NCBI GenBank assembly: GCA_038042985.1 | Contig: JBBTCZ010000042.1 | Coordinates: 6,856-70,855, forward strand | Length of the DNA: 64,000 nt | Origin: Pseudomonadota bacterium | GTDB taxonomy: Bacteria > Pseudomonadota > Gammaproteobacteria > Burkholderiales > Thiobacteraceae | Direction of reading: 5' to 3' | Part shown: positions 14,534 through 53,102 of the stretch, piece by piece | Layout of the letters: each line of letters starts with the position of its first letter | Position numbering within the stretch: the first letter of the stretch is position 1 | The notes under the pieces: model-generated | Database searches by the model: none | What the model saw: the letters and a program-made list of their open reading frames with translations, nothing else | What the model was told of the DNA's origin: nothing | Position numbers and translations under genes: made by a program

Positions 14534-14768
14534 CACGAGACTCCTACAATATGATTTAAGTGAAAATATAACAAGCATGATACATGCCACATTCTCAATG
14601 TATTTATAAATTAATCATTAATACAATAACTTAAGAAGTTTGTAAGAAGTCTATATTCTGGGGAATGAAAATTTTTAAGCATATATGTAAAAATTTCCGA
14701 CTTCCACAGCACCTTGATTGATATCCAAGGCGCGCAGAGCGAGTCGAGTATCCAGCGAGGAGTGGTAC

Positions 14769-16538: not shown

Positions 16539-19500
16539 TTACTCCGTAATAATCTCCCGCCAAGATACTCTATTGACGCCCCCAGAGTTCGTGGGTAAGG
16601 GCGCCGCTGTTACATCGACACTGCCATCCGACTGTTTAATAACGGTTTTAACCGTGCCATTCGGCAGCTTGACGATGGTTGGACGGCTCCCTAGCTTGTT
16701 ACCAAGTGATTTTGCTGTCCAACTGACGGTGGAGCCGGTGAGAAAGCCACCCGTTTTATAGTCCAAGAAGTAGAGCCAACTGGATCCACCTGGGGTGCAA
16801 GGGTCGATATTTGGAATATTACTGGTGAAAATGAGTGCCCCCAACGCCAACGCAGCGTTGGTTACAGCGCGTTCACCGCTATCAGGAAGGTCGACATACC
16901 ATCCTTTCTGAGTATTGTAGTTAACTGTGTTTGACGAGGCGGTGCGGAATAAACCGCTGGTAGTCAAAGTTTGCTGTTGAAGACTCGTACGTAAAGGGCT
17001 TATTAATGGGGAACTGGTCAAATCATCAACCAGACCATAATAAGATTGGGTTTGGGCGGCATGAATGTTCGCACCCGTTCCTGGTACATCTGAGTTTCCA
17101 AGATATTGGCCGGTGCCAACAAAAACCAAGCGTTTTCCGTTAACGATGCCGAGTTCGGGGGCAGTTGTAATGGGTTGGCTAGTAACAGCGCCATCTACCA
17201 GCGTAGCTAATTTAGCGACGCCCCATGCATTGCTATTGGTGCCCGTAAGATCAAAACGCCACAGGTTACCTTCCAGATCGCCGCCATATACGTATTCAAC
17301 CGTATTGTCGAGATTGCTAGTGGCGACATAGCCACTGATGTGCGCTAAACCGCTTGGGGTAGCCGAAGACCCTACCCCAGTGGGAATATCCTTGAGCAGG
17401 TCGCCTGTTTTCGCATCCAATACAAACAAGTGGCCTTGTCCATCTCCGCTGGTGTCACTGCCGTTGTTGTAGCCTGAAGTGACCAGGATAACCCATCCTT
17501 TGGCCGTCGTTTTGACCAGAATAGGGCTAGCATAGCTAAGGCCAATATTGTTTCTGACTATGGCATTAGTGCTCGAATTGGGGAACTCCCAGAGTACTTT
17601 GTTCGCAACGTCGGTGTCGCTGAGTGCCGACGGGTTAGTGACGTCTAGTGCGTAATATCCGCGACCGCCTTTTCCTAAGCCACCAACCAAAATTGTGTGC
17701 CAATCTGCTGGTGGGTTGCCGGTCACGCCTGCGGTATTACTAAAGTCCAAGTCGCCGACTATGGGGGTTCCATCTACGTAGTAATAGTGGACGAACCCAG
17801 ATTTCGCGCTCAAATTAACTAATTTGCTAGTAGTTGCGTTGCTGGGCAGCTTGGAATCGAAAAGCAAACCCGGGACATACGCCCACTGTTCGGCTCCGCC
17901 CCCTGCCCCCGCGCTGAATGCATGTAGCATGCCATCGTTGGCGGCTTGATAGACCATTTTGGCGCGGGAGGCATTCGCGGTTTTATATGCCGAATAGCCA
18001 CTATCTGCGTAAGAATAAATAGGCGCTGCAACATAAACCGACTCGGCATTAATGATGTCGCCTAGTACATGGCTGCGAGTACGATAGGTTGTGCCTTCTA
18101 AAGATCGATCTCCGCGCAGGAAATTAAGCACGGTTGCGCCGTCTGTACCGGAAGGAGGGGTATGCAGCGTCGCTTTTTGCCCCGTACTCAAACTCGCCCA
18201 CGTAAAAGGTATCCCCGCGCTTCCTGAGAAAGATCCAATCTTGCGGTTAGTCCACGTTAGGGCATCTAATTGTGCTTGGGCTGATGTTGTCCAAAGTGGT
18301 GCGTTGGTATCGGGGATACCGGTAGTTAAATTAATCGGATAAGCCTGCAAATCACCCGTCCAATTTCCCCCATGAAAACTAGAGGAATAAGAGCTATTGT
18401 CATTCGCTGTGACGTTATTGTTGCTAACGGTGACTGCTGCTGCAGCGCCTTCTCGTCCAACGATATCATTCAGCGCAGCGGTTAGGCCGTCTTTAAGCGT
18501 AGAAGGATCCTTGCCGCTGAAATATTGGCCATGCCCATTGATCGCGGCATGCCATAAGTCATCGATGGTGCTGGCGGTACCGGCTGTGGGCACAGGCCAG
18601 TTGGTTGTGCCGCTTTTGAGGTTGGCCAAGGTTGTGGCATTAAAGGCAAGCGTTCCATCAACCCCCATGCCTATTGTGAAAGTAGAAACGTGCTGCCAGG
18701 TTGCTGGATCTGAACTATTGGCAAGGACATTGTTGGTCAAAGTACGAAGGTCGGTGGCCCAGTAATACATGGCAATATCGGCTAAGTTGTTGCTACTGGC
18801 GGTTGTACCTTCATAAAAGGGTCGTGGCCAAGCGCTGGCGGGGGTAAGCGCAGTACCCGATATTGGATCTAGGCTGATTGTTGCCGGGAGCGTCGGCACA
18901 GTCTGATCATGATTGCCGACTGTCGTACTGACTGCGACGTTCCAATAGCCATCGGTTGAAACGATATGGTAGTTAGGCTGGCATGATTGCTGGATTGGAT
19001 CAATCGATCCGCTAGCGCCGGGAAGCGTTCCGGTTCGATAGTATTCGCCCACACGACGGAGCGATTCTGGAACAGGTGTGCCGCCATTGGGCGTCACGGC
19101 AAACAACCGGGTGAACCATGTGGCTTTTTGCCCGGTCGTAAAATCAGCAGTATTGAGGAAGTTGGCGCCGCTGGTATTGGTGCTACCACTATTGTCGTTA
19201 ATGGTATAAAACCCCACACGATATTGGTCGTTCAACGTTGAGAACGATAGGCTCAAGGCGCTTTTCATCGCCAACATGCGGGTGCGGTAGTAACTGTGCC
19301 AAATGATGAAATTCGTTTGTTGGGCGGTCGGGAGGTTGATACACGTAAAGTTGGCGTCGTTGTTGACGATTGCATTATCTGTTGGCGATGTGAGGATCGT
19401 GGTTGCACCAGCATTATAAGTGCAATAGTTGGCGGCGACAGCTGCATTGCAACCGTATTCATCCGCGCGAAAGCTGGTCGATATATTTCTGGTGCTGGTA

Positions 19501-19862
19501 CTGGTAAAGCCATCTATATAGGCATTCGGCCAGGCTGGAACGGGGAGAGTATTACCGTTTGCATCCACCGGTACTGGATAGGTGTAGTTCGGATTGTAGT
19601 AGACGCGGTTATAAGAGCTGGAACGATACGAGCGCTTACTACAATAGTTCCACACTTCGTCCGGCATTTCCTGCCAAGCCATGCTGCCGGAATTGTCTAA
19701 GGTAAACATGATATTGGGTTTGACGCGGTATTTTACCGCCATCGGTGAATCAGCAATGTCGGTGGCAGCGGCGTGGACGGGTTGCACGAGTTGAGCGGAG
19801 ACCAAAAAAATTATCAGTAGTCGGCCAGCGAGCGATTTAAAAGTCGAATTTAGGATAGTCAT
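16539..19862 (-). CDS. pilY1: Type IV pilus tip-associated adhesin / assembly protein PilY1
   Basis: 1107 aa with a signal peptide. N-terminal segment MFTLDNSGSM (vWA-like), large C-terminal beta-propeller-like region, and position after pilX. Confidence 0.85.
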   Translation of the reverse strand: MTILNSTFKSLAGRLLIIFLVSAQLVQPVHAAATDIADSPMAVKYRVKPNIMFTLDNSGSMAWQEMPDEVWNYCSKRSYRSSSYNRVYYNPNYTYPVPVDANGNTLPVPAWPNAYIDGFTSTSTRNISTSFRADEYGCNAAVAANYCTYNAGATTILTSPTDNAIVNNDANFTCINLPTAQQTNFIIWHSYYRTRMLAMKSALSLSFSTLNDQYRVGFYTINDNSGSTNTSGANFLNTADFTTGQKATWFTRLFAVTPNGGTPVPESLRRVGEYYRTGTLPGASGSIDPIQQSCQPNYHIVSTDGYWNVAVSTTVGNHDQTVPTLPATISLDPISGTALTPASAWPRPFYEGTTASSNNLADIAMYYWATDLRTLTNNVLANSSDPATWQHVSTFTIGMGVDGTLAFNATTLANLKSGTTNWPVPTAGTASTIDDLWHAAINGHGQYFSGKDPSTLKDGLTAALNDIVGREGAAAAVTVSNNNVTANDNSSYSSSFHGGNWTGDLQAYPINLTTGIPDTNAPLWTTSAQAQLDALTWTNRKIGSFSGSAGIPFTWASLSTGQKATLHTPPSGTDGATVLNFLRGDRSLEGTTYRTRSHVLGDIINAESVYVAAPIYSYADSGYSAYKTANASRAKMVYQAANDGMLHAFSAGAGGGAEQWAYVPGLLFDSKLPSNATTSKLVNLSAKSGFVHYYYVDGTPIVGDLDFSNTAGVTGNPPADWHTILVGGLGKGGRGYYALDVTNPSALSDTDVANKVLWEFPNSSTNAIVRNNIGLSYASPILVKTTAKGWVILVTSGYNNGSDTSGDGQGHLFVLDAKTGDLLKDIPTGVGSSATPSGLAHISGYVATSNLDNTVEYVYGGDLEGNLWRFDLTGTNSNAWGVAKLATLVDGAVTSQPITTAPELGIVNGKRLVFVGTGQYLGNSDVPGTGANIHAAQTQSYYGLVDDLTSSPLISPLRTSLQQQTLTTSGLFRTASSNTVNYNTQKGWYVDLPDSGERAVTNAALALGALIFTSNIPNIDPCTPGGSSWLYFLDYKTGGFLTGSTVSWTAKSLGNKLGSRPTIVKLPNGTVKTVIKQSDGSVDVTAAPLPTNSGGVNRVSWREIITE

Positions 19863-19930
19863 GGTCTTTTTCCTTTACCTTTCGTCAAGCGAAGTAACCG
19901 AATATCAAGCGCCCACTTGTGAAGCAACTG

Positions 19931-20575
19931 TTATAAGCCGAGGGTGCCTTGGATAATGCTTGTTGCGTTTCTGGGGCCTTGCACCCTCACCGTGGCCCGG
20001 TAATACACTTTAGTGCTGGTAGTAAATTGGGGAGCATTGTTTTTCTTACTGCCATCGTCCAGGGGATTTTTGGCAACGCAATTTTCAAGAATGTTGGTGA
20101 CAGGCAAGGTTCCGCCACACAAACGGTCAATGACGTATTGGATTCGATAGAGCGAGTTATCCCCGCAACTTACGACCGTACCTGCCGTGTCGCGGCAAGG
20201 AACCGTACCCCAATTGATAGTGGTGGGAAGACCCGTCGCATCGACTGGCTGCTCTAATGCGAAATACTGATTTGCAATATTCTGCTCTGCGCTGGCAAGG
20301 ACAATGCCGGGCAATGCGGCTGCGGCTATTTCTATCCCTGCATCGCCAGTTTGAACTGTCGCCTGCTTAAATGCGGCGTTGCCCGAGATGGATATTGAAG
20401 TATCCACTGACCGCACCAGTGCAATCGCAGCGAGCGACATTACCACCAACGCGATTAAAGTGAAAAACAGAATCACACCTTTTTGTCGCGTGCCCGAGCT
20501 TGAGCGTATTTTTGGCCAGGCCAAAATAAAGGGGGCTGGGTTTGGCGCAGGTCGATGTACTAGAGATTGGCCCAT
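19931..20575 (-). CDS. pilX: Type IV pilus minor pilin PilX
   Basis: 214 aa; hydrophobic N-terminus GVILFFTLIALVVMSLAAIALV followed by a PilX_N-like segment. Sits between pilW and pilY1. Confidence 0.7.
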   Translation of the reverse strand: MGQSLVHRPAPNPAPFILAWPKIRSSSGTRQKGVILFFTLIALVVMSLAAIALVRSVDTSISISGNAAFKQATVQTGDAGIEIAAAALPGIVLASAEQNIANQYFALEQPVDATGLPTTINWGTVPCRDTAGTVVSCGDNSLYRIQYVIDRLCGGTLPVTNILENCVAKNPLDDGSKKNNAPQFTTSTKVYYRATVRVQGPRNATSIIQGTLGL

Positions 20576-21714
20576 AGCACATTCCTTAAAGGGATAATGG
20601 TTTGGAAAGTTTTATAGCGATAGCACTGCCAGTTCGCATTGGCAGTGAGGTCGATCGCAGGCCCACCTGTCCAAGATTGGGGCGCATTGGCGGCTGTGGT
20701 TGCGGTGCATACGCCTGCAGTCTGTCTTTCGCTGAGTGCACTCCGCGCGACAACTGCAATGCGGATCGCTTTAATACGCAGAATGTTTGCGCTCGTCGGG
20801 TTGGCCCAATCACTTGCATCACAAGCGTTGCCTAAAGTTGCATTGACCCAGCAGTTGACTTGTTGGCTGCCGACCGGCGCAATCCCATATTGCGCCTGCA
20901 GGCTAACAATATCCCCCACTGTGGCTACAGGTGCTGCATCGGTTGGGAGCTGAGCCATCAACGCCAACGTAGGGCCGGAAGTGCCTACCGAATAAGTGCG
21001 CTGGGTGGTGCCCCCCCCTAAGCTGAATACTTGTGCACCAGCGTTATACGCTGGCCAACTGTTAGCATTTTGAAAATTAGCGGCGGGGTTGTAGCTGGGG
21101 GCATTCCCGGGGTTGTGTTGTATTTTATATGCGGCGGGCTGCACTTGCGTAATCTGCATGACCGTGCAATTGCCGCCTTGAGCGACGATGACTAGATCGT
21201 TTAATCGAAAACCGGCGGTAGATACGACATCCAGTTCTGCAGAGGGTTGGGGCATGTTCTTAGAAATCGCGGAGGATATGCCCGAGCGGACTGAGTTACC
21301 ATAGGTAAATGTGATGGTATCCGGAGCATTTCCACCATCTATGATGCGCACAGGCATTAGCGAAAGCAGACCGCCTACAAAATTTGGGGCGGGGGATGTT
21401 TGCGTGGTGCCATTGTCAAAGTAGCTAAATATATTTGCACATGAAAACAGATTAGAGTCGGCGATCCCTGCCCCGGCCATGCGTGCGTCTCTCTCAATGG
21501 ATAACGTTGCGAACATGCCATTTTCAGTTGCATCGGCACCACTGGTGGTGGTGCGCTTTTGACCCTCGAAAGCACTATACATTTGAAAAATAATGAGGGT
21601 GGCGGCCAAAGCAATCACCATCCCGACCATGGTTTCAATGATGCTGAATCCGCGTGAATGCGATGGTAAAAAGGGTAGGTAAGATTTTCTCATCATGCTG
21701 CTTTCGTCATCCAT
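20560..21714 (-). CDS. pilW: Type IV pilus minor pilin / assembly protein PilW
   Basis: 384 aa; prepilin leader ..SRG|FSIIETMVGM with Glu+5. Contains a G8 tract (C8 at 21011-21018 on the plus strand). Confidence 0.75.
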   Translation of the reverse strand: MDDESSMMRKSYLPFLPSHSRGFSIIETMVGMVIALAATLIIFQMYSAFEGQKRTTTSGADATENGMFATLSIERDARMAGAGIADSNLFSCANIFSYFDNGTTQTSPAPNFVGGLLSLMPVRIIDGGNAPDTITFTYGNSVRSGISSAISKNMPQPSAELDVVSTAGFRLNDLVIVAQGGNCTVMQITQVQPAAYKIQHNPGNAPSYNPAANFQNANSWPAYNAGAQVFSLGGGTTQRTYSVGTSGPTLALMAQLPTDAAPVATVGDIVSLQAQYGIAPVGSQQVNCWVNATLGNACDASDWANPTSANILRIKAIRIAVVARSALSERQTAGVCTATTAANAPQSWTGGPAIDLTANANWQCYRYKTFQTIIPLRNVLWANL

Positions 21715-22183
21715 TAATTTGCGTCGTTACTGTGTGGCTGTGATACGTCGCGTCTTGTGGCGAGCGCCAACAAACAGTTATCGTTACAAGATTATTCGCG
21801 CCCACGACGATCCGTTGCCGGTTTGCGGTGGCTTGGGGCAGCGTTGCCGCAACATCCGCTAACCAACTTACTAAATTGGCTGGCGCGCCTGGCGCAGCGG
21901 CGCCCGCTGCGCAAGTAGCCGCACCGGCGTTGAAGCCATATGCAGCAATATTATTCGTGCCCCCATTATTGCGATCCGTCCAAACATATCCAGACATCTG
22001 ATTCGCAAGAAAAGCCGCATCATTGCGAAATTTTGCATCTCGCGAGGTGTTAATCGTGGTTCCTTGTAATCCTGCAATGGCAAGTATCCCGAATGAAAAA
22101 ATGAGAATAGAGATGAGACCTTCCAGGAGAACGCTGCCTTGTTGGGAGGTCGCGGTGCGGCAAGGGTGGGTAACATGGCTCAT
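21707..22183 (-). CDS. pilV: Type IV pilus minor pilin PilV
   Basis: 158 aa; leader ..QQG|SVLLEGLISILIF with Glu+5. Confidence 0.75.
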   Translation of the reverse strand: MSHVTHPCRTATSQQGSVLLEGLISILIFSFGILAIAGLQGTTINTSRDAKFRNDAAFLANQMSGYVWTDRNNGGTNNIAAYGFNAGAATCAAGAAAPGAPANLVSWLADVAATLPQATANRQRIVVGANNLVTITVCWRSPQDATYHSHTVTTQING

Positions 22184-22201
22184 ATTTAATCTCTGAGGTA
22201 A

Positions 22202-22786
22202 CTAACAGCTTTGAACGTTTGCTGTCGGCAGATTGGGATCGCACATCCGAATTTGGCCGCCGGGCGTAACCACGACGTTTAGCGGGCGTGTACCGCCTGT
22301 ATTATTCGTGACATTGATAGTAATGTTGGCGCCTGGTGTGGGGGTAACTCTACCTAGCGAATTGAACGTTATGGTGGCTTGTGAGGCGGCGACAACCGCA
22401 TTTGGGGAACCATCCGCGCCAGACCGTCCCTGGATGAAATCAGTAGCGGTATAAACGCCACCCGTTTGAAAAGTGCGTACCATCCAGCTGGTGCCAGTCG
22501 TGGCCGGAGTGATAGTGTTCACATTGCCAACTATTGGCAGGTTATTAGTAAAAACAAATGAAGTGGGTGCGTTTCGACGTACAGCCTCAGCGCGCGCCAA
22601 GTTGAATCCATTTAGGATAGATTCTGCAGATGTTCTAATTTGGGTGTTCTGTATCCAAGTGCCAAAGCTAGGTACGCCCAGGCCTAATAGCAGTGCAACC
22701 AGGGTAATAGCGATCATCAGCTCTATCAGCGTGACCCCGCCGATTTTTTGCGCTGTTGCGGGCGATAATAGGTTGCTATAGCTCAT
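22202..22786 (-). CDS. Type IV minor pilin FimT/FimU (GspH-domain)
   Basis: The ATG at 22786 forms an ATGA overlap with the pilE-like stop. Leader ..IGG|[13 protein letters not shown], then SF.TWIQN..IRT.AE.....L.AR.EAV. Confidence 0.7.
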
Positions 22787-23214
22787 GGTTTTTTTGTTAA
22801 CCAACTATTGTTCGATGTGGCAGAGCCCCATACAGCGCCTGTAGCGGAGGTGCGTGTATTGGTCTCATTGATGGTGTAGCTAAAGCCTGCGACTAAGGTG
22901 CCGGCGACGCCAGTAGCAGTGCTAGTGAAAGTTTGACCAGTGGCGGCGCATGTATAGGTGAAGTTTGGCGTATTGGCTGACGCCGTCTGATTACAGCCAC
23001 CTGTGCCATTGGCATTCACAGAGTAAACACGGTTGTCTTGATACCACTGCTCCATCTGCACGCGGTGACTTGCAAGGTTGCCGGTGGCTTCGGTGATTTG
23101 GCCGCGCCGTACGTAATCGGTGTAGCTAGGCAGTGCGATGGCTGCCAAAATGCCTATGATCGCAACGGTGACCATCACTTCTATCAACGTAAAGCCCTTG
23201 TTATCTTGTCTCAT
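22783..23214 (-). CDS. pilE: Type IV pilin-like protein PilE (minor pilin)
   Basis: 143 aa; MRQDNKG|[30 protein letters not shown] is a classical type IVa prepilin N-terminus. Confidence 0.8.
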
Positions 23215-25008: not shown

Positions 25009-25084
25009 GCCGGTGTAGCTCAGTTGGTAGAGCAGCGCATTCGTAATGCGAAGGTCGGGAGTTCGACTCTTCTCACCGGCACCA
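25009..25084 (+). tRNA. tRNA-Thr (anticodon CGT)
   Basis: 76-nt cloverleaf folded by hand: acceptor GCCGGTG/CACCGGC, D-arm GCTC-AGTTGGTA-GAGC, anticodon loop TTCGTAA, T-loop TTCGACT, encoded CCA. Confidence 0.85.
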
Positions 25085-29836: not shown

Positions 29837-31501
29837 GTGTTCGCACTTAAGCCGCGTTTTTGCTTTACCACCGATGGCCTCCGAGATTGGTTCGGCCAAC
29901 GGCTGCGGCACGCTCCTCTCCCAATGACCGTGGAGGAGGCCGAGACATGGTGCGCCGAGTTGCCGGCGCATGACGCCTATGCCGCGTTGCACGCTATCGC
30001 GGCGATGCTGGATTCCTTGACCGGCGCTAAGAATCTGCCTGGGTCCAATCGCGTAGCGGTAGCACGCGTGATCGACCGCGCTGCCGCACCCTTCGCGGCG
30101 AAACTGTATGCCGACTATTTAGCGCTGTTGCGTGGCCAAGCCACGCAGGAAGCGCGCTTGTGGCTTGCGCTGGCCGGCTATTGGCGCAGTGTGGAACAAG
30201 TGTATGCAAGCCTTGCTTGTGAATTGTACGAGCCCGAGCCAGGTGCAGGCAGCGAATGGCTGGCGCTGATCGGCCATGCACTGACCGCTTTAAGCGAACA
30301 GGCCAAGCTGGCGCGCCTGCGTTATTGCGCAGTAGATGCGCGTATCTGGCGCGAGTTGGGGCGATTAATTGCGGTAGCCGAAACGGCGCAAGCAGGTGTG
30401 CCGAACTCGGTGATGCAGGCGTGGGCGCGCTTATTCATGCGAGAGATGGCTTCGCCGCAGAATTTGTTGCCGCGCGAAATCGAGATCGTGGATAGGCTGG
30501 CGATGCACTATGCCGCGCAATTTGTGTGTCAACGCAAGGCCTCGCCTGAGGCCGGATATTACTTCGATCTCACTGCTGGCCAAGCGCCGTCACGGCGCAT
30601 TCCTTCAGGCCAACTCACTGGACACAGCCGTTTCTTCAGTGCGGGTGAGACTTATCGCCAAGCCGAGTTGGACGCGCACACCATCGAACAGCAGGGCGCC
30701 TTGGATGCGTTTCCGGCCTTGGTGCATTTCGCACCGGAGGAGGTGGTGCGGATGCTGCGCCATGTAGCGCGATTGTGGTCGCCGACGCCCCCGGCGCGCG
30801 GGCAAGACCGGAGCGAGGTACTAAGTCGGGTCATGTTCGTTTTTGATTTGAATGAAATTCGTCGAAAAGTCGACAAGGGTGACAGTATCGCAATGGCGAT
30901 CGCATCGGGTAATCGGGATAGCTTGGAGCAGACCGACCTCAAGCGTTATGGCTTCGTTACCGAACGTACCCGGCAGCAGGTAGTCGAGGCTGACGATACC
31001 CTGCCGGCCAAAGATGACGCGTTAACGGAGAGTTGGGTGGTGCGTGATGAGAGCGGCGGTGGCTTCGGCGCCGATGTGCCGAGCCACACGGCGGATTGGC
31101 TGTGCGCCGGCAAGCTCATCGGATTCAAACGCGAAGGTGGGGAACAGTGGGGCGTGGGCGTGATACGGCGGGTGGAGTTCGATTCGCATCAGAATGGCCG
31201 CGTCGGCATTCAAATACTGAGCGAGCAGCCACGCACGGTGCGGCTGCGCCCCCTGTGCGCAGCGCAGCTTGCCGGATGGGACAAACACCAGGAAGCGCCG
31301 AGCTACGAGTACCGCAACGGTATTCTGCTGAGCTTGCCGCAAGGCCGGGATATCGGTGTGCTATTGCTGCCGTTCGGTACTTATAGCCAGGAACAGCATT
31401 TCGAATGGGTCCACGGCGCGTCGAGTGATCTGATGGCGGTGACAAGTCACGCGATGCATGCCGATGAGTTTGATTTGCTGATGTTTCGCTTGGTGGCATG
31501 A
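29837..31501 (+). CDS. Paralog 1 of a ~550-aa family with a C-terminal PilZ-like beta-barrel signature (most divergent copy)
   Basis: 554 aa (GTG start; alternative ATG at 29924). Motifs RGQDR ... DESGGG (DxSxxG) ... GKLIGFK..G..WGVGVIRR are shared with the 31548 and 34091 ORFs. Confidence 0.7.
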   Translation: MFALKPRFCFTTDGLRDWFGQRLRHAPLPMTVEEAETWCAELPAHDAYAALHAIAAMLDSLTGAKNLPGSNRVAVARVIDRAAAPFAAKLYADYLALLRGQATQEARLWLALAGYWRSVEQVYASLACELYEPEPGAGSEWLALIGHALTALSEQAKLARLRYCAVDARIWRELGRLIAVAETAQAGVPNSVMQAWARLFMREMASPQNLLPREIEIVDRLAMHYAAQFVCQRKASPEAGYYFDLTAGQAPSRRIPSGQLTGHSRFFSAGETYRQAELDAHTIEQQGALDAFPALVHFAPEEVVRMLRHVARLWSPTPPARGQDRSEVLSRVMFVFDLNEIRRKVDKGDSIAMAIASGNRDSLEQTDLKRYGFVTERTRQQVVEADDTLPAKDDALTESWVVRDESGGGFGADVPSHTADWLCAGKLIGFKREGGEQWGVGVIRRVEFDSHQNGRVGIQILSEQPRTVRLRPLCAAQLAGWDKHQEAPSYEYRNGILLSLPQGRDIGVLLLPFGTYSQEQHFEWVHGASSDLMAVTSHAMHADEFDLLMFRLVA

Positions 31502-31547
31502 AATCTGCTTTTGTTAGGGCAAATACGTAGATCGCTTTTAGGCAACC

Positions 31548-33263
31548 ATGTTGAAATTCCTCGCTACCATCGGGCGCAAGCCCATTCCGCCGCTCACGAA
31601 TTTGCACTCCATCACACGCTGGATGGAAGAATTGCCCATGGGCGATGCCGTCGAGACGATCGAAGCGGTAGTAAAGCAGATCAAGGAATACTGTGATCAG
31701 GGGTTGCCAACCACGAAAGAGCGCTTGGCTGTGCTCACCGCGCTGGATCAAGGCGCGCAGGAAGCGCTGGAAACGTTGCGCGATCAATATCTGCAAAATC
31801 CCCGCATGTCGCGCATGATGGAAAGCCGGCTGTGGAATACGGTGCTGGTGTATTACCAGGAAATTTTGCGCGCCTACCATGGCCACCTGATGGAATATAT
31901 CGGCAACCCGACGGGTAGCCGCATCGGACCATCGATCCCGCTATTGACCGCGCGCGCGGTAAATTATTTCGCCTTGGATGCAAAATGGAGTTATTACCGC
32001 TACACCCAGGCCAATCCAAAATTATGGAAACGGCTGCACAATCTGTATCACTTCGCAGAGTACGAAGAGTTCGAGCGTCAACCGCTGAAACTCTATGCGG
32101 AGGGGCTGGAAACCTCCGTCGCCGATCTCTATTTGCAAGCGCTGATGCTGGAAACGCTAAATACCGGCAGCCTGGCGCCGCGTCAGTTGTCTCTGATCGA
32201 GCGCTGGTTGCCGATGTTAATTAAAGATATCCACATAGATCGCGAGTTCAAGCCGACGCAACATACGTTCTATCTCGACTTGAATGAAAACCGCGGGGCG
32301 CATCGGGTGCGCCGGGTCGTGCCGCAGGAAAATCTGCGCTATTGGGATACCTACGGTTTGAAGGAAAAGCTCGATCATCTGCGCGACCAACTCACGGCAG
32401 GGGCGCTGCCAGTCAGGCTGGGGTTAACCGAAGATTGCAAGCTGCCGACTTGCCTGGAATTACTGGAACGCATCGCCTATTTTTGGTCGCCCACCGGGGT
32501 CAAGCGCGTGCAGCGCGCATTCGAGCGCAAGAACGCCATGCAGTCCATCGAAGTCGTGCGCGGCCTAAACGATATCAGCCTGAATGTGCGCGCTGACAAC
32601 GCGCGCGTAGTAAGTTCAGTGAACACATCTGGTACGGGCGATATCAGCTATGCAGAAATGTTGGACGTGCGTCTCTATGGTTTTGTCACCCAACGTACAC
32701 AGAGCAGCCAAGGCAAGGACGAAAAAATAGAACATGTCATCGCGCACGAGCGCTGGGTGATGGAGAATGAAAGCGAAGGCGGTTACGGCGCGAACATCAA
32801 CGATCAAGCCGACGATTGGGTGCGGCTCGGCAAATTGGTCGGGTTGAAACCGGAGAAAAAAGGTCACTGGAATGTGGGCGTGATCCGTCGCATGCGGCGC
32901 ATCAGCCCTCATCAGCAGTATGTAGGCATCGAAGTGATTGCTGAACGACCAACCGCGCTGCTGTTGCGCGCGGACAAATCTGAAAACCGGCCGCTGAGCA
33001 TCGAGGGTATCGATGCGGTCGGCTTTGTGATGCCGATCCCCACGCTCTACCTCAAGGCGGCGCAAGCCGATCAACCGGGGAATCAAGTGGATTCGTTGAT
33101 ATTGCAAAGCGCGGAATACGCCAAGGGGCGCGAGCTTTGGTTCAATGCGAAGGGCTTTACCTATCACATCCGTTTGAAACAAGCTGTGGAGCGCGGCGAC
33201 GACTGGCTGCGCGCCTCGTTCGACGTGCTGGCGAAAACCGCAGCTAAGCAGCCAGCACCATAG
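31548..33263 (+). CDS. Paralog 2 of the PilZ-like family
   Basis: 571 aa; RAFER ... NESEGG (NxSxxG) ... GKLVGLKPEKKGHWNVGVIRR. The N-terminal helical region aligns with paralog 3 (LLTARA..YFA..AKW.Y.RY, LP.RLGL.EDC.LP.CLEL). Confidence 0.8.
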   Translation: MLKFLATIGRKPIPPLTNLHSITRWMEELPMGDAVETIEAVVKQIKEYCDQGLPTTKERLAVLTALDQGAQEALETLRDQYLQNPRMSRMMESRLWNTVLVYYQEILRAYHGHLMEYIGNPTGSRIGPSIPLLTARAVNYFALDAKWSYYRYTQANPKLWKRLHNLYHFAEYEEFERQPLKLYAEGLETSVADLYLQALMLETLNTGSLAPRQLSLIERWLPMLIKDIHIDREFKPTQHTFYLDLNENRGAHRVRRVVPQENLRYWDTYGLKEKLDHLRDQLTAGALPVRLGLTEDCKLPTCLELLERIAYFWSPTGVKRVQRAFERKNAMQSIEVVRGLNDISLNVRADNARVVSSVNTSGTGDISYAEMLDVRLYGFVTQRTQSSQGKDEKIEHVIAHERWVMENESEGGYGANINDQADDWVRLGKLVGLKPEKKGHWNVGVIRRMRRISPHQQYVGIEVIAERPTALLLRADKSENRPLSIEGIDAVGFVMPIPTLYLKAAQADQPGNQVDSLILQSAEYAKGRELWFNAKGFTYHIRLKQAVERGDDWLRASFDVLAKTAAKQPAP

Positions 33264-33915
33264 CCAGCCAATTCCCGATATCCCCCACTTCCTGCGCACA
33301 TACCGTGTGCGGCATCGCATATTCGCGCCATTCCACCCGGTAGCCGAGTTGGGTCAAGATTGCACGCGAGCCATCAGCGAGCGCATAGGGCACGATGTCA
33401 TCTGCAGTGCCATGTGCCATGAAGATCGGCAATGTACGATTGACGGTGCTGGCCTCTGCCGCTAAGCAGTCTTTCAAACCCAAGTACGAAGACAGAATCA
33501 ACGCGCCGGCGAGCGGCTGGGGATAACGCAGCGCGCCATTCAAGGCGATATTACCGCCTTGGGAGAAGCCGGCGAGCACGATGCGCTGGGAAATAACACC
33601 GCGTTGCAGCTCACGTTCGATCAAGCGATCAAGATAAGCCATGGATGTACGGATGCCGGCTTCATCCTCGGGTGCATCTGCATACAAACCGATGATGTCA
33701 TACCAACTGGGCATGACATAGCCGCCATTCAAGGTGACGGGCTGCTCAGCGGCATGCGGAAAGATAAAGCGCGTCGGCGGTAGATGGGCCAGCGCCAACT
33801 CATCGACGATGGGCAAAAAATCAAAACCATTCGCGCCCAAGCCGTGCAGCCAGATGACGCTGGCGTCAGGCGAGGTGCCGGTTTCGACTTCGAGCGGTGC
33901 GCGGTAGGAGAGCAT
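33244..33915 (-). CDS. Alpha/beta-hydrolase, phospholipase/carboxylesterase family
   Basis: 223 aa; nucleophile elbow GFSQGG, plus WLHGLGA and MAHGT.D segments typical of carboxylesterase II / YpfH-type enzymes. Its 3' end overlaps paralog 2 by 20 nt (convergent). Confidence 0.8.
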   Translation of the reverse strand: MLSYRAPLEVETGTSPDASVIWLHGLGANGFDFLPIVDELALAHLPPTRFIFPHAAEQPVTLNGGYVMPSWYDIIGLYADAPEDEAGIRTSMAYLDRLIERELQRGVISQRIVLAGFSQGGNIALNGALRYPQPLAGALILSSYLGLKDCLAAEASTVNRTLPIFMAHGTADDIVPYALADGSRAILTQLGYRVEWREYAMPHTVCAQEVGDIGNWLAMVLAA

Positions 33916-33943
33916 TTGAGTGTCGTTTGAAGCAAAAAACTAC

Positions 33944-34076
33944 TTAACCACGGGGGGCACGGGGCACACGGGGAACCCCAAAACCTTTTGCGTTTGAATT
34001 TGTTTGCCCATGGAATGCAAAGGTTCGAGCTGGTGCCTGATTGGTTTCCCCGTGAACCCCGTGCCCCCCGTGGTAA
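33944..34076. repeat. CACGGGG-family REP-like inverted doublet with an internal hairpin
   Basis: Left TTAACCACGGGGGGCACGGGGCACACGGGGAACC. Right TTTCCCCGTGAACCCCGTGCCCCCCGTGGTAA. The spacer contains CCTTTTGC...GCAAAGG. Confidence 0.8.
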
Positions 34077-34090
34077 ATGGTTTTTAGAGT

Positions 34091-35722
34091 TCAGTGATGC
34101 CGCGCGAGGACGTCGAACGGCACGCGGCTATAGTCTTCTGCTTCTTCTAGCGCGTTTTGCAGACGGATGGTGTAAGCCTTGCCTTGTGCCTTGAGTTGCA
34201 GCAGACGGCCCGGCTCATAGTCCTGGCGTGCGAGGAGCAGGCTGCGTGCCACTTGGGCTTGCGGCATTTCCAACAAATACACTGCGCTCGCCCGCTGTGC
34301 GCGGCTGTCGCCATCGGAAAGGGAATTCAATTCGACCGGAATCGGCGACTGGCTTAAGGTTTCAATACCGACGTAGGTTTTGCTCGTTGGGTTCTTGTTG
34401 ATGCGGCGGATGACGCCGATCAGAAAATGGCGGCTGCTTTCCGGCTTGAGCCCGATCAGCGAACCGATTTTGAGGCCCTTGTGACCGCTCGGGTTGAAGG
34501 TGACGCCGTAGCCGGATGCGCTTTCGTTTTCCATGATCCATTGTTCCAGCGCGGGCTCAAATAGATCATTGTTGCCCTGCGTATTCATATCCATCGGCGA
34601 ACCGCCGACGGTATAGCCCATGACTTGGTAGCCGATCATTTCACCCTTGGGCTTGCGTTGAATTTTTGCACCCGGTTTGAGCTGGGACAGGATGTCGCCT
34701 AAGCCTTGCACGACATGTACGACTTTGACGTTTGGCTTACGCTCATGTTTGCGCTGCACATCTTTCTTTGCCCAGCGGTTTTTCACCAACTCAATCAATT
34801 CGAGGCATAGCGGCAAGCGACAATCCTCGCCCAAGCCTAAGCGCGCTGGTAATTCGCCGCCTTTCAAGTGTTCGATGGTCTTTTCGATGGTCACCAGCAG
34901 CAGGCCGACACCCCAGTAGCGGTATTTTTCGCCCAGCATATTGCGGCGCAGGGAGCGCGCCGGCTTGGTATCGCCGAGGTTCACCGCATACAACTGACGA
35001 TGCGGGCGGAATTCCATTTCCAGGCTGACGCTCTTGGCCCAGGTATCGAGCCAACCATCCACTTGATTGATTTGTTGCGGCTGCAAGCTCTCCGGATTGG
35101 CGAGCATGAGCATCATGGGTTGCAGGTATTCAGATAGGCAGGAGGTTTCGTCGCTGCTGTCTGGAAATAACTTAACCGGTGTTTTCTCGAAATTCTCACG
35201 CTCGGCGAAGAGATAAAGCCGGTGCAGGTTGCGCCACACCGCGCCTTCAACCGGCATATAGCGTAGATACGCCCATTTGGCTTGCATCGCGAAGTGATAC
35301 AGGGCGCGCGCGGTGAGAACGTGGATGGTCGGCCACAATTTAGCGCTGGGGTCTTGGGCGAAGCTGCGGATGCAGATTTGATAGGCCACGGCCATTTCAT
35401 CCCAGAACGCCAGAATCGTATGCAGATAGGCGCGCTCGGGGGCTTTCTCGTCTTCCATCGTGACTAGATAGTCGTGGCACAGATTGTCTTGCAGTGCGCG
35501 CGCCTTCTCATTCAGGTACATGCAGACCCGAATCCGCTCCTTGAGCGGCATTTTTTTGTTTTCGTTGATGCTGGAGAGCGCGCGCACAATTTCAATTTGC
35601 GCATTGTGGATATCCGCGAGCGGCAGCTCTTGAACCCAAATGGTGGCCGATTTTAAATCGCCTACCGGGTCATCGGATTTTTTGCGCAAGATCGCGTTGA
35701 TGAGCCCGCTAAAGTCGAACAT
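34091..35722 (-). CDS. Paralog 3 of the PilZ-like family
   Basis: 543 aa; RKHER ... NESASG ... GSLIGLKPESSRHFLIGVIRR. Collinear with paralog 2 over the full length. Confidence 0.8.
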   Translation of the reverse strand: MFDFSGLINAILRKKSDDPVGDLKSATIWVQELPLADIHNAQIEIVRALSSINENKKMPLKERIRVCMYLNEKARALQDNLCHDYLVTMEDEKAPERAYLHTILAFWDEMAVAYQICIRSFAQDPSAKLWPTIHVLTARALYHFAMQAKWAYLRYMPVEGAVWRNLHRLYLFAERENFEKTPVKLFPDSSDETSCLSEYLQPMMLMLANPESLQPQQINQVDGWLDTWAKSVSLEMEFRPHRQLYAVNLGDTKPARSLRRNMLGEKYRYWGVGLLLVTIEKTIEHLKGGELPARLGLGEDCRLPLCLELIELVKNRWAKKDVQRKHERKPNVKVVHVVQGLGDILSQLKPGAKIQRKPKGEMIGYQVMGYTVGGSPMDMNTQGNNDLFEPALEQWIMENESASGYGVTFNPSGHKGLKIGSLIGLKPESSRHFLIGVIRRINKNPTSKTYVGIETLSQSPIPVELNSLSDGDSRAQRASAVYLLEMPQAQVARSLLLARQDYEPGRLLQLKAQGKAYTIRLQNALEEAEDYSRVPFDVLARHH

Positions 35723-35886: not shown

Positions 35887-36696
35887 TTATTGGTGGTTTT
35901 CCAACAGGCGTTGGGCGATACCGATTTCGTCCGATTTGCTGAAAAAATAGGGATAGATCGATTTTTCGCCCTTGGCCGCCTCGGCTTGGCCGCCGAATTT
36001 ACGGATTTGCGCATCCATGTAAGCGGTCTCAACCCGCATCAGCACCGCCGGCGCGTTGACGCGCTCGCACTGGCGCTCTTCCCCGAGTTGCTGGAAGCCC
36101 AACATGCGCTCGTAGAACGCGACGTGACGCGGATTGACCTCGGCCAGAAGGTCGGTGCTGCCATTGAGATAGCGGGCGTGGATGTAGGCGATATGGAATA
36201 AGGAGGCCAGCACTTTGCGCGAGCGCACGTTAGAGTCCACCGCGAGCTTGGTCATCTCGCATATTATGCGGCCCGCTTTGCGCAAAGGGTCGATCCGGTC
36301 TTGGTACATGGCGTCGGCCGAGAGTCCTTCGGCTGCGTCGAGGCCCACCGTGAGGGTGCCGATCGTTTGCTCGGCGAAAAAAACCGAGAGGCATATTTTA
36401 TTGGGGGTGTGGGCTACTGGCGTGGCAGCCGTGGTGTAGCCGCGCCAAGAGTACATTTTGCGGATGAGAAGATTGGCGGATTGCGCGTGGTTCGCATCGC
36501 GAGTGAGCCGGATCTTGAATTTCTGCATGCCCATTTGCACGCTATTGAGCGCCTCGCCCAAGGGATCGGCGCACATGTGTTGCAGTCCGAGCCGTGCTTC
36601 GACCGACACAATGGTGTGCTGTCCGACGGTAGATTGCCGTTGCCGCCGCTCAGCGGGCTTGGCGAGAATACCTAACATTTCCGCCTCCTTATCCAT
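35887..36696 (-). CDS. GNAT-fold N-acyltransferase resembling FeeM-type long-chain N-acyl amino acid synthases
   Basis: 269 aa; segments LLIRKMYSWRGY, TIGTLTVGLD, E.TKLAVD...RS..VLASLFH.AY and EVNPRHV.FYERMLGF match my recollection of the FeeM/Acetyltransf_5 family. Not verified by search. Confidence 0.55.
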   Translation of the reverse strand: MDKEAEMLGILAKPAERRQRQSTVGQHTIVSVEARLGLQHMCADPLGEALNSVQMGMQKFKIRLTRDANHAQSANLLIRKMYSWRGYTTAATPVAHTPNKICLSVFFAEQTIGTLTVGLDAAEGLSADAMYQDRIDPLRKAGRIICEMTKLAVDSNVRSRKVLASLFHIAYIHARYLNGSTDLLAEVNPRHVAFYERMLGFQQLGEERQCERVNAPAVLMRVETAYMDAQIRKFGGQAEAAKGEKSIYPYFFSKSDEIGIAQRLLENHQ

Positions 36697-36876: not shown

Positions 36877-37437
36877 CTATGTCCACTTTATGTCGGTTTT
36901 TTGCGCTGATTTTGGCCGAAATGCTTTCAGCACTTCGTCACGGGTTTCAATATATGGCCCACCCAGCAGGTCAATGCAGTAAGGCACCGCCGCGAATACC
37001 CCATCCAAAGTTTCCTTGATCGCCTTAGGCTGACCAGGTAAATTTAAAATCAAGCACTTACCACGTATTACCCCGACTTGGCGCGAGAGGATCGCCGTGG
37101 GAACATATTTCAAGCTCACCGCACGCATTTGCTCGCCGAAGCCATCCAATACACGTTCCGCGATGGCGAGGGTGGCATCCGGCGTGACATCGCGCGGTGC
37201 TGGACCCGTGCCGCCGGTGGTTAGGATCAGATTGCAGTGAATCACATCCACCAGGTCGATCAAAGTTTGCTCGATGAGCGGTCGTTCATCGGGGATGAGC
37301 CGCGTTTCGGCATGCCATGGGGATTGGATGGCGGCGGCGAGCCAATCTTTCAAGGCGGGTAGACCTTTATCTTCGTAGATACCCAGGCTGGCGCGATCGC
37401 TCACGCTGACCAAACCAACAATCAATTCCCGCATCAT
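36877..37437 (-). CDS. mogA: Molybdopterin adenylyltransferase MogA
   Basis: 186 aa; near-collinear with E. coli MogA (LVS.SDRAS.G.Y.DKG.PAL..WL, LTTGGTGPA.RDVTPDATLA, LPGQPK.IKETL). Confidence 0.9.
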   Translation of the reverse strand: MMRELIVGLVSVSDRASLGIYEDKGLPALKDWLAAAIQSPWHAETRLIPDERPLIEQTLIDLVDVIHCNLILTTGGTGPAPRDVTPDATLAIAERVLDGFGEQMRAVSLKYVPTAILSRQVGVIRGKCLILNLPGQPKAIKETLDGVFAAVPYCIDLLGGPYIETRDEVLKAFRPKSAQKTDIKWT

Positions 37438-52499: not shown

Positions 52500-53020
52500 G
52501 ATTTATGCTCCGGCGGTTCCTCGCCGGCAAGATAGCCGATGCGTTTGATGATTTCCGCCACGCCTTGCAGCAGCAGCAGGGTGAAGCCGAGCGGGATCAT
52601 CAGTTTCGCCGGCCACAGCATCAAGCCGCCCGGATTATTCGACCACTCTTGTGCGGAATAGGAATTCAGAAAAAACGGCCAGGCGTGATAGAGCACGAGG
52701 GCGCACAGCGGTAGCAGAAACAGCAGCCCGCCGACAATGTCGATCCACGCTTGCGCGCGTGGACCAAAGCGGCTTACGAGAATGTCGATGCGCACATGCT
52801 CGTTCTTCAACAGCGTATAACCCGCCGCGAGCAGAAATACCGCTGCGAACAAGGTCCATTGAATTTCGAGAAATGCATTGGAACTCATCTGGAATGCCTT
52901 GCGCATGATGGCGTTGCCGGCGCTGATCAGCACAGTGGCGAGAATCAGCCACGACACCGCGCGGCCGATGCGCTGATTCAGACGATCGATAAAATGGGCG
53001 AGGGTGAGCAGTGGTTTCAT
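52496..53020 (-). CDS. TRAP transporter small permease (DctQ, COG4665/FcbT2-type)
   Basis: 174 aa, 4 TM segments, immediately upstream of the large permease. Confidence 0.8.
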   Translation of the reverse strand: MKPLLTLAHFIDRLNQRIGRAVSWLILATVLISAGNAIMRKAFQMSSNAFLEIQWTLFAAVFLLAAGYTLLKNEHVRIDILVSRFGPRAQAWIDIVGGLLFLLPLCALVLYHAWPFFLNSYSAQEWSNNPGGLMLWPAKLMIPLGFTLLLLQGVAEIIKRIGYLAGEEPPEHKS

Positions 53021-53102
53021 GATGGGGATAGGGTGGGTGTAGGACGCGATTATAGGCAGGCCGGCTGTTCCCCGTCGAATTGACCCCTGTTACCATGGGC
53101 CT

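What the first reader, a model, noticed from the sequence alone, without database searches (positions are those of the whole stretch)
29837..35722. Three clustered paralogs of an uncharacterised ~550-aa protein with PilZ-like motifs: main candidate for an undescribed system
ORFs 29837-31501 (+), 31548-33263 (+) and 34091-35722 (-) are collinear paralogs. They share an N-terminal helical region: W..ELP..D, LLTARA..YFA..AKW.Y.RY, LP.RLGL.EDC.LP.CLEL. The C-terminal region carries an RxxxR motif (RGQDR, RAFER, RKHER) and a (D/N)xSxxG motif (DESGGG, NESEGG, NESASG). This is followed by G.L(I/V)G.K......W.(V/I)GVIRR. Those two motifs define c-di-GMP-binding PilZ domains. However, by my count they are about 80 residues apart here, against the usual 20-30, so this is at best a divergent or insertion-bearing PilZ. 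Three diverged copies converge on an esterase gene and sit next to a FeeM-like acyltransferase. I cannot match this arrangement to any described pathway.
Basis: partly seen in the sequence, partly recalled or inferred. Interest (0 to 1): 0.75.

Follow-up and report, generated by a model that had tools for sequence, protein, structure and literature searches.

The report
Three FimW-family c-di-GMP receptor paralogs
The three clustered ~550-residue genes are real, diverged copies of FimW, a known bacterial sensor of the signalling molecule c-di-GMP that controls type IV pilus assembly in Pseudomonas, so this is an uncharacterised multi-copy example of a known protein family, not an undescribed system.

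Summary
The ORFs at 29837-31501(+), 31548-33263(+) and 34091-35722(-) are full-length paralogs (BLASTP E 4e-27 to 4e-96). All carry RxxxR and (D/N)xSxxG, 71-80 residues apart. The PilZ reading is supported by structure, not sequence. AlphaFold2 models put RxxxR before strand 1 of a beta-barrel and the second motif at the next strand pair. A helix plus a disordered loop lies between them. Foldseek's best PDB matches are almost all c-di-GMP-bound PilZ proteins. No PilZ HMM or PDB sequence is hit.

The "undescribed system" reading fails. Precomputed Pfam calls place all three copies in PF27104 FimW_N. Close orthologs also hit PF27125 FimW_C. FimW (PA4958) is a published c-di-GMP effector that goes to the cell poles and promotes type IV pilus assembly. 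The family is large (5,190 clusters at 50% identity), with near-invariant motifs.

The FeeM neighbour is missing from a close relative (copy 3 93% identical), so it is probably incidental. The layout copy 2 -> <- esterase <- copy 3 is conserved down to about 43-55% identity and is unexplained.

I could not retrieve PA4958 itself, so the FimW link rests on Pfam family names. Verdict: new member of a known kind; modest interest.

The parts
29837..31501 (+). Copy 1 (554 aa), the most diverged FimW-family paralog. Helical N-terminal domain, then a PilZ-like barrel with RGQDR (30797-30811) and DESGGG (31046-31063).
   Evidence: ORF; PF27104 FimW_N in precomputed Pfam; BLASTP to the other copies; motifs. 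Orthologs in L001, L003, L004, L010, L011. It has its own lineage among the representatives.
31548..33263 (+). Copy 2 (571 aa), FimW-family paralog, 46 bp downstream of copy 1 on the same strand. RAFER (32514-32528) and NESEGG (32766-32783). Its 3' end overlaps the esterase 3' end by 20 bp (convergent).
   Evidence: Copy-2-type orthologs down to about 43% identity keep the convergent arrangement with the esterase.
33244..33915 (-). Abhydrolase_2 (phospholipase/carboxylesterase family) serine hydrolase, 223 aa, with a GFSQG nucleophile motif. Lies downstream of copy 3 on the same strand.
   Evidence: PF02230 E 1.6e-51; GxSxG at residue 116. Same-strand adjacency to copy 3 in 21 of 29 loci with gaps of 11-209 bp, and also in L035.
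34091..35722 (-). Copy 3 (543 aa), FimW-family paralog and the best-conserved of the three. Helical domain residues ~20-320, PilZ-like barrel ~318-470 (34313-34771), extra C-terminal beta domain ~476-543 (34094-34297).
   Evidence: AF2 full-length model pLDDT 78.2, pTM 0.74. C-terminal model pLDDT 85.2, pTM 0.79. Foldseek.
34739..34753 (-). RxxxR motif of copy 3 (RKHER, residues 324-328), immediately before barrel strand 1 (residues 329-339).
34547..34705 (-). Insertion between barrel strands 1 and 2 of copy 3 (residues ~340-392): a short helix, then a low-confidence loop. It carries the semi-conserved element 'lyGfvt.rt' of long-form family members.
   Evidence: pLDDT below 50 for residues 353-391. 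Motif spacing in the family is bimodal, 34-49 vs 60-88 residues. Conserved element.
34511..34528 (-). (D/N)xSxxG motif of copy 3 (NESASG, residues 399-404) at the junction of barrel strands 393-400 and 404-409.
35887..36696 (-). FeeM-family N-acyl amino acid synthase-like gene. A neighbour, probably not part of the unit.
   Evidence: PF21926 E 1.5e-53. Present only in L002 and L004-L008. Absent in L003 (copy 3 93% identical, Mog directly abuts copy 3) and in all more distant loci.
36877..37437 (-). MoCF_biosynth (Mog-like) gene, a conserved upstream neighbour of copy 3 on the same strand. Listed as context.
16539..23214 (-). Type IV pilus minor-pilin/PilY1 operon, about 7-10 kb from the cluster. 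It shows the organism has the machinery that FimW acts on in Pseudomonas. Listed as context.
   Evidence: PilY1 PF05567 2.3e-47 and PilW PF16074 8e-10. GspH/FimU-like gene and a ComP_DUS pilin with N_methyl motifs.

Best explanation
The three genes encode old, diverged paralogs of the FimW family of cytoplasmic c-di-GMP receptors. Each has a ~320-residue all-helical N-terminal domain (Pfam FimW_N). This is followed by a PilZ-type beta-barrel whose RxxxR arm and (D/N)xSxxG turn form the c-di-GMP site, and then by a small extra beta domain. In this 'long form' of the family, the link between barrel strands 1 and 2 carries a ~40-residue insertion: a helix, a flexible loop and a semi-conserved YGFVT-like element. 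That insertion is why the two motifs are 71-80 residues apart and why PilZ HMMs miss the domain. Shown here: paralogy, family membership, motif invariance and the predicted fold. Inferred by analogy with P. aeruginosa FimW: when c-di-GMP rises, the proteins bind it, change oligomeric state or location, and stimulate type IV pilus assembly. The organism encodes that machinery. Inferred more weakly: the three copies may decode c-di-GMP with different thresholds or partners. Copy 3 is probably co-transcribed with a serine esterase whose role in this is unknown.
For: Paralogy. Family: precomputed Pfam gives PF27104 FimW_N for all three window proteins and PF27104 plus PF27125 FimW_C for most orthologs. 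An exhaustive profile search finds 5,190 clusters (50% identity) at E<=1e-3 and 1,092 at E<=1e-30. Motifs: R324 143/148, R328 146/148, D/N399 148/148, S401 137/148, G404 144/148. Fold: full-length model pLDDT 78, C-terminal model pLDDT 85 with the barrel core above 90. Foldseek vs PDB with the C-terminal model: MrkH prob 1.00 (E 1e-3), VCA0042 0.99, BcsA 1.00 (rmsd 3.6-3.9 A over ~141 columns), PA0012 1.00 (TMt 0.80), YcgR PilZ 0.99 (TMt 0.53), MapZ 0.98, Alg44 0.72-0.75. The full-length model gives the same set. Source names in the family include 'PilZ domain-containing protein' and 'cyclic-di-GMP-binding protein'. FimW function: c-di-GMP binding, polar recruitment, stimulation of T4P assembly (PMC10212136, PMC7322531, PMC12564702, PMC11656802). 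T4P genes in the window: PilY1, PilW and minor pilins.
Against: No P. aeruginosa FimW (PA4958) sequence could be retrieved, so homology to the characterised protein rests on the Pfam family names, not on an alignment made here. FimW_C is not on record for the three window proteins themselves and is only 'weak' in close orthologs. No Foldseek match is below E 1e-3. No PilZ HMM and no PDB sequence is hit. No T4P gene is immediately adjacent to a family member in any locus examined, and there is no fimX-like GGDEF-EAL neighbour as in Pseudomonas. Even in Pseudomonas the molecular action of FimW is unknown and its phenotypes are debated (PMC11656802; bioRxiv 10.64898/2026.09.03.749161; PMC12288467). 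Three paralogs need not share one output.
Confidence: 0.7

Rival explanations
1. These are FimW-type c-di-GMP receptors whose output here is not pili. Instead they act on the conserved partner esterase: copy 3 (and perhaps copy 2) would control, or act together with, the Abhydrolase_2 hydrolase, for example in lipid or acyl-ester turnover at the membrane.
For: Copy 3 and the esterase are adjacent on the same strand in 21 of 29 loci, mostly 11-76 bp apart, down to ~54% copy-3 identity. The genes abut in Sulfurirhabdus. The full layout copy 2 -> <- esterase <- copy 3 recurs in L035, where copy 2 is only 43% identical. In the window the cluster borders the lplT-aas lysophospholipid recycling genes.
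Against: The adjacency is confined to the Sulfuricellaceae-like lineage. Chitinivorax-like loci, Crenobacter, Burkholderiaceae DAT-1 and Rhodocyclales members lack it. The housekeeping gene mog is conserved alongside just as well, so this may be neutral synteny. No known PilZ-esterase partnership was found. The lplT-aas neighbourhood is not kept in Sulfurirhabdus.
Confidence: 0.15
2. These are PilZ-fold adaptors that no longer bind c-di-GMP, like the protein PilZ (PA2960) itself, and act only as scaffolds.
For: The barrel is atypical: a 71-80 residue gap between motifs, no PilZ HMM hit and modest Foldseek E-values.
Against: Both halves of the binding signature are nearly invariant across 148 representatives sharing ~20-30% identity, which indicates selection on the ligand site. 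FimW is reported to bind c-di-GMP (PMC7322531, PMC11656802). Short-form members with 34-49 residue spacing keep the same motifs.
Confidence: 0.08
3. One reading: an undescribed multi-gene system in which the three paralogs work with the FeeM-like acyltransferase and the esterase in a novel acyl-signal or lipid pathway.
For: The genes are physically clustered in the window. The FeeM-family gene is kept next to copy 3 in L002 and L004-L008.
Against: FeeM is absent in L003 (copy 3 93% identical), where Mog directly abuts copy 3, and in every Sulfuricellaceae and more distant locus. The protein family is already curated (FimW_N/FimW_C) and has a characterised prototype. There is no PADLOC hit.
Confidence: 0.04

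Closest known systems
FimW (PA4958) of Pseudomonas aeruginosa; Pfam PF27104 FimW_N plus PF27125 FimW_C
   Same: The same Pfam N-terminal domain is called on all three window proteins. The C-terminal domain is called on close orthologs. The proteins share the PilZ-type c-di-GMP signature, lack predicted enzymatic domains, and occur in an organism with type IVa pilus genes.
   Different: There are three diverged copies in one cluster, not a single gene. There is no fimX (GGDEF-EAL) neighbour. Copy 3 has a conserved esterase partner. The long-form insertion is present, and whether PA4958 has it is unknown to me. No alignment to PA4958 could be made here.
Canonical single-domain PilZ receptors (Pfam PF07238; e.g. 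PA0012 8u0i, MapZ 4xrn, Alg44 4rt0, YcgR PilZ 5y6g, BcsA PilZ 4p00)
   Same: RxxxR precedes strand 1 and (D/N)xSxxG sits at the strand 2/3 turn of a small beta-barrel. These are the best structural matches (prob 0.72-1.00, TMt up to 0.80).
   Different: There is no sequence-profile match. Motif spacing is 71-80 residues (34-49 in short-form relatives) against the usual 20-30. The barrel is embedded in a ~550-aa protein, after a 320-residue helical domain and before an extra beta domain.
Two-barrel PilZ proteins (MrkH 5ked/5kgo, VCA0042/PlzD 2rde, PlzA 7mie, YcgR 5y6f, MotI 5vx6)
   Same: They top the Foldseek list, with ~185-190 aligned columns covering both beta domains of the C-terminal region. 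This suggests a PilZ barrel paired with a second beta domain.
   Different: The superpositions are poor (rmsd 10-17 A, TM ~0.25). Here the domain order is PilZ barrel first and accessory beta domain second. These proteins have no equivalent of the FimW_N helical domain.

Membership tests
FimW family (Pfam FimW_N/FimW_C; prototype P. aeruginosa PA4958) | Match to PF27104 FimW_N | tested here: met
   Precomputed Pfam hits at E<=1e-5 on the products of all three genes on an identical contig and on all listed homologs but one fragment. The model is not in my local Pfam copy, so I could not rerun it.
FimW family (Pfam FimW_N/FimW_C; prototype P. aeruginosa PA4958) | Match to PF27125 FimW_C | tested here: inconclusive
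   No hit is on record for the three window proteins. It is listed for many orthologs of copy 3 at 80-94% identity, marked 'weak' in Sulfurirhabdus, and unmarked in the Rhodocyclales branch.
FimW family (Pfam FimW_N/FimW_C; prototype P. aeruginosa PA4958) | Significant alignment to the characterised protein PA4958 itself | not tested
   No Pseudomonas sequence was retrieved by the genome scan, by the three homolog searches, or among the top 150 of the representative search. The link is inferred from the Pfam family names plus the agreement of PilZ-type features with the literature.
FimW family (Pfam FimW_N/FimW_C; prototype P. aeruginosa PA4958) | Binds c-di-GMP, relocates to the poles, promotes T4P assembly | not testable with these tools
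   Literature only (PMC10212136, PMC7322531, PMC11656802). T4P genes are present in the window.
FimW family (Pfam FimW_N/FimW_C; prototype P. aeruginosa PA4958) | Encoded next to fimX (Pseudomonas context, not a strict family criterion) | tested here: not met
   No GGDEF/EAL gene lies within +/-10 kb or among the other window ORFs scanned. The other family loci examined lack one too.
PilZ domain (Pfam PF07238) | Match to the PilZ profile HMM | tested here: not met
   No PF07238 hit at E<=1 for the window proteins, and none for 18 short-form or distant relatives scanned at E<=0.1 or E<=1. A barrel-only profile finds no PDB sequence at E<=10.
PilZ domain (Pfam PF07238) | RxxxR and (D/N)xSxxG motifs | tested here: met
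   Present in all three copies and nearly invariant in 148 representatives.
PilZ domain (Pfam PF07238) | Motifs separated by about 20-30 residues (typical value from general knowledge of the family) | tested here: not met
   79, 80 and 71 residues in copies 1-3. Family spacing is bimodal at 34-49 and 60-88.
PilZ domain (Pfam PF07238) | Small beta-barrel fold superposable on solved PilZ domains | tested here: met
   This is a predicted structure only. Strands at residues 329-339 and 393-467. Foldseek: PA0012 prob 1.00, TMt 0.80, rmsd 3.6 A; BcsA prob 1.00, rmsd 3.6-3.9 A; YcgR PilZ prob 0.99, TMt 0.53. E-values are modest (1e-3 to 0.3).
Zorya ZorC (EH signature domain) | Match to EH_Signature/ZorC profiles | tested here: not met
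   UniRef labels a few relatives 'ZorC EH domain-containing'. Those proteins give no such Pfam hit at E<=1, and the window proteins hit no Zorya model in PADLOC.

The most novel reading that the evidence does not exclude
The deeply conserved layout 'FimW copy 2 -> <- Abhydrolase_2 esterase <- FimW copy 3' (plus copy 1 in some lineages) is a functional module. In it, two or three FimW-type receptors, possibly as hetero-oligomers with different c-di-GMP thresholds, control a serine esterase or a shared target at the membrane. That would give the FimW family an output other than, or in addition to, pilus assembly, and could point to the still-unknown molecular action of FimW.
Probability: 0.12. 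Interest if true: 0.55.

Novelty: new member of a known kind. Interest (0 to 1): 0.3.

Why it matters
FimW is one of the c-di-GMP effectors behind rapid surface commitment in P. aeruginosa. A 2024 review states that its exact function and partners remain unknown (PMC11656802). This analysis shows three things about the family. It is very large (more than 5,000 clusters at 50% identity). It comes in a short and a long form that differ by an insertion inside the PilZ barrel. In groundwater Sulfuricellaceae-like betaproteobacteria it occurs as two or three old paralogs arranged around a conserved esterase. That gives comparative handles for working out how FimW acts: invariant residues in both domains, a conserved insertion element, and a recurrent gene partner. 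It is not a new kind of system.

Tried and rejected
1. Local Pfam, NCBIfam and PADLOC scans of the three proteins found no meaningful hit. The family models are newer than the local Pfam copy.

2. Sequence-profile searches against PDB found nothing, both with the 3-paralog profile and with a 35-sequence barrel-only profile of short-form members.

3. I tried to reach P. aeruginosa FimW in four ways. The genome-contig scan used a single peptide pattern and returned only copy-3 orthologs. A profile of 64 short-form members returned Chitinibacteraceae. The distant member P0334 returned Rhodocyclales. The primary paper, Laventie 2019, is not held. The direct test therefore remains undone.

4. The ZorC/EH-domain lead from UniRef names was rejected.

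5. The promoter and terminator scan of the cluster gave fewer sites than shuffles and was uninformative.

6. The Rfam scan found no c-di-GMP riboswitch, only one tRNA.

7. tblastn against the plasmid collection gave no match.

8. The viral fold library gave nothing informative about the N-terminal domain.

9. The FeeM linkage was rejected on its presence/absence pattern.

10. Recent tandem triplication was rejected. The copies share only 24-33% identity, and each has its own lineage among the representatives.
Full report
OBSERVATION. The three ORFs are present exactly as reported: 29837-31501(+) 554 aa, 31548-33263(+) 571 aa and 34091-35722(-) 543 aa. I call them copies 1, 2 and 3. Independent gene calls on an identical groundwater metagenome contig give the same products. 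They align over nearly their whole length. Pairwise BLASTP gives E 9e-40 (copies 1 and 2, 26% identity), 4e-96 (copies 2 and 3, 33%) and 4e-27 (copies 1 and 3, 24%). The distance from the last R of RxxxR to the D/N of (D/N)xSxxG is 79, 80 and 71 residues. In a single protein, such an ordered motif pair appears in 4-6% of composition-preserving shuffles, so the motifs alone prove little.

Conservation is what carries the weight. I aligned 148 family representatives that share only about 20-30% identity. At the aligned positions, R324 is kept in 143, R328 in 146, D/N399 in 148, S401 in 137 and G404 in 144. Only copy 2 converges on the esterase, with a 20-bp tail-to-tail overlap. Copy 3 lies upstream of the esterase on the same strand.

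WHAT THE FAMILY IS. My local Pfam, NCBIfam and PADLOC libraries give no hit for the three proteins. The large protein collection, however, carries precomputed hits to two newer Pfam models, PF27104 and PF27125. The contig look-up names these FimW_N and FimW_C. All three window proteins are called FimW_N. FimW_C is recorded for many close orthologs of copy 3, sometimes only weakly, but not for the window proteins themselves. It is strong in a distant Rhodocyclales branch.

FimW (PA4958) of Pseudomonas aeruginosa is listed among PilZ-domain c-di-GMP effectors (PMC12564702, PMC10335732). On surface contact, c-di-GMP rises and binds FimW, which accumulates at the poles and stimulates type IV pilus assembly (PMC10212136, PMC7322531, PMC10118264). 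A 2024 review adds that its exact function is unknown and that no interaction with FimX or PilB has been shown (PMC11656802). Recent work also disagrees about its phenotypes (PMC12288467; bioRxiv 10.64898/2026.09.03.749161).

An exhaustive profile search shows that the family is large: 5,190 clusters (50% identity) at E<=1e-3, 3,672 at E<=1e-10 and 1,092 at E<=1e-30. Named members found here are all betaproteobacterial: Sulfuricellaceae, Chitinibacteraceae and relatives, and Rhodocyclales. Their sources call them 'hypothetical', 'PilZ domain-containing protein' or 'cyclic-di-GMP-binding protein'.

There is one important limit. I could not obtain a Pseudomonas sequence with any search available. 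Identity with the characterised FimW therefore rests on the Pfam family names and on the agreement of features, not on an alignment made here. From my own knowledge, the other protein called FimW, in Salmonella, is a small LuxR-type regulator of type 1 fimbriae and does not fit a 550-residue PilZ-like protein.

IS THERE A PilZ BARREL? By sequence, no. The Pfam PilZ model is missed by the window proteins and by 18 other family members, including short forms. Profiles of the whole protein or of the barrel alone find no PDB sequence even at E<=10.

By predicted structure, yes. The full-length AF2 model of copy 3 (pLDDT 78.2, pTM 0.74) has an all-helical region up to about residue 320. RKHER lies at 324-328, directly followed by a strand (329-339) and a helix (341-348). 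A low-confidence loop follows (353-391). Then come six strands (393-467), with NESASG at the junction of the first two, and finally a further beta domain (478-542). A model of residues 314-543 built from a 142-sequence alignment is better: pLDDT 85.2, pTM 0.79, with the barrel core above 90.

Foldseek against the PDB returns almost only c-di-GMP-binding PilZ proteins at the top:
- MrkH: prob 1.00, E 1e-3.
- VCA0042/PlzD: prob 0.99.
- BcsA: prob 1.00, rmsd 3.6-3.9 A over ~141 columns.
- PA0012: prob 1.00, TMt 0.80.
- YcgR PilZ domain: prob 0.99, TMt 0.53.
- MapZ: prob 0.98.
- Alg44, PlzA and MotI also appear.

The full-length model gives the same set. The E-values are modest and none is below 1e-3. 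I therefore treat this as good but not conclusive evidence of the fold, strengthened by the motifs lying exactly where a PilZ domain has them.

The unusual spacing is explained by an insertion between strands 1 and 2. Across the family the spacing is bimodal: 34-49 residues in 64 'short-form' representatives and 60-88 in 82 'long-form' ones. The long-form insertion carries a semi-conserved element, consensus e..d..lyGfvt.rt. It reads YGFVTxRT in copies 1 and 2 and MGYTVGGS in copy 3. The N-terminal helical domain has no informative structural match in the PDB or in the viral library. A UniRef label 'ZorC EH domain' on a few relatives was tested and found unsupported.

THE CLUSTER AND ITS NEIGHBOURS. 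The window matches a Burkholderiales/Sulfuricellaceae-like MAG (L002, 99% identity). I screened 29 related loci for the window's genes:
- Copy 3 is followed on the same strand by the Abhydrolase_2 esterase in 21 loci. Gaps are mostly 11-76 bp, and this holds down to ~54% copy-3 identity. The two genes abut in Sulfurirhabdus autotrophica.
- The mog-like gene upstream is equally conserved.
- Copy 2 is present, convergent on the esterase, in about half of the loci.
- Copy 1 is present in five loci.

The complete arrangement (mog, copy 3, esterase, copy 2, copy 1) is found in the isolate genome of S. autotrophica. The core 'copy 2 -> <- esterase <- copy 3' recurs in a contig where copy 2 is only 43% identical.

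The copies are old lineages, not a recent triplication. Among 147 representatives, 65 score best to copy 2, 47 to copy 3 and 35 to copy 1.

The FeeM-family gene is found only in the closest relatives (L002, L004-L008). It is missing in L003, where copy 3 is 93% identical and mog directly abuts it. Its position is therefore most simply an incidental insertion.

Other branches of the family (Chitinivorax-like loci, Crenobacter, Burkholderiaceae DAT-1, Rhodocyclales) have neither esterase, mog nor pilus genes next door. The window does contain a type IVa minor-pilin/PilY1 operon at 16539-23214(-). So the machinery FimW acts on in Pseudomonas is present. At 7-10 kb away and unconserved, though, this is weak evidence of linkage. 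No GGDEF/EAL gene, c-di-GMP riboswitch or useful promoter/terminator signal was found near the cluster.

MECHANISM. Most likely (0.7 overall), each copy is a cytoplasmic c-di-GMP receptor. Family membership I put at about 0.9 and ligand binding at about 0.8. The RxxxR arm and the (D/N)xSxxG turn of the barrel clamp c-di-GMP. The helical FimW_N domain and the C-terminal beta domain provide the output surface.

By analogy with Pseudomonas FimW, ligand binding changes oligomeric state or location and promotes pilus assembly. I put at about 0.45 the chance that at least one copy does this here. Three diverged copies suggest different thresholds, partners or hetero-oligomers.

The main rival (0.15) is that, in this lineage, the output involves the co-transcribed esterase. 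A non-binding scaffold (0.08) is disfavoured by motif invariance.

VERDICT. The PilZ idea is right in substance: this is a divergent, insertion-bearing barrel. The claim of an undescribed system is not upheld, because the family is curated as FimW and has a characterised prototype. This is a new, multi-copy member of a known kind. The conserved esterase partnership and the barrel insertion are the only points that go beyond what is described. Interest 0.3.

Noticed in passing
window 16539-23214 (-): A complete-looking type IVa pilus minor-pilin operon. It contains a pilin with N-methylation motif and ComP_DUS domain (22783-23214), a FimU/GspH-like gene (22202-22804), a PilV-sized ORF (21707-22183), PilW (20560-21714), a PilX-sized ORF (19931-20575) and a 1107-aa PilY1 (16539-19862).
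   Followed up: partly
window 35887-36696 (-); loci L002-L008: The FeeM-family N-acyl amino acid synthase-like gene between mog and copy 3 is a presence/absence polymorphism among close relatives. It is present in L002 and L004-L008 and absent in L003. NCBIfam gives only a partial hit, to PRK14852 (E 6.7e-14). Its substrate and role are unknown.
   Followed up: partly
L001 12720-13163; L035 3480-3914; L036 130-567: In other genomes, a small CBS-domain protein gene repeatedly flanks the outer FimW-family copy (copy 1 or copy 2 type). In the window that position is taken by lplT. This is a possible additional conserved partner.
   Followed up: no
L013 5260-6795; L020 4980-6497: In two Sulfuricella MAG loci, a second, very distant FimW-like ORF (23% identical to copy 3) lies about 3-4 kb upstream of the copy-3 ortholog. 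Those loci lack the mog and esterase neighbours.
   Followed up: no
window 13850-14590 (-): A 246-aa protein with a C-terminal PEP-CTERM sorting motif (PF07589, E 4e-8), which implies an exosortase system in this organism.
   Followed up: no
window 43769-45610 and 45607-47934 (+): Two adjacent, overlapping genes for large Trypsin_2 protease plus multi-TPR proteins (613 and 775 aa), followed by an 837-aa NHL-repeat protein (48477-50990).
   Followed up: no
window 62124-63464 (-), 52635-53813 (-), 59834-62021 (-): ORFs of 446 and 392 aa have no Pfam hit at E<=0.01. Two neighbouring ORFs (320 and 363 aa) have only weak TPR hits. The 392-aa ORF overlaps other long ORFs, so it may not be a real gene.
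   Followed up: no
window 48-746 (-): A 232-aa protein with T5orf172/MUG113 (GIY-YIG-like) and YozE SAM-like domains at the window edge. It may be related to a mobile element.
   Followed up: no
window 25009-25081 (+): A single tRNA gene (Rfam 65.7 bits) between the Fur-family gene and aas. It is the only Rfam hit in the 64 kb.
   Followed up: no
proteins P0278, P0286, P0294, P0312: UniRef names several short-form family members 'Zorya protein ZorC EH domain-containing protein'. No Pfam hit supports this, so it may be a propagated mis-annotation.
   Followed up: yes
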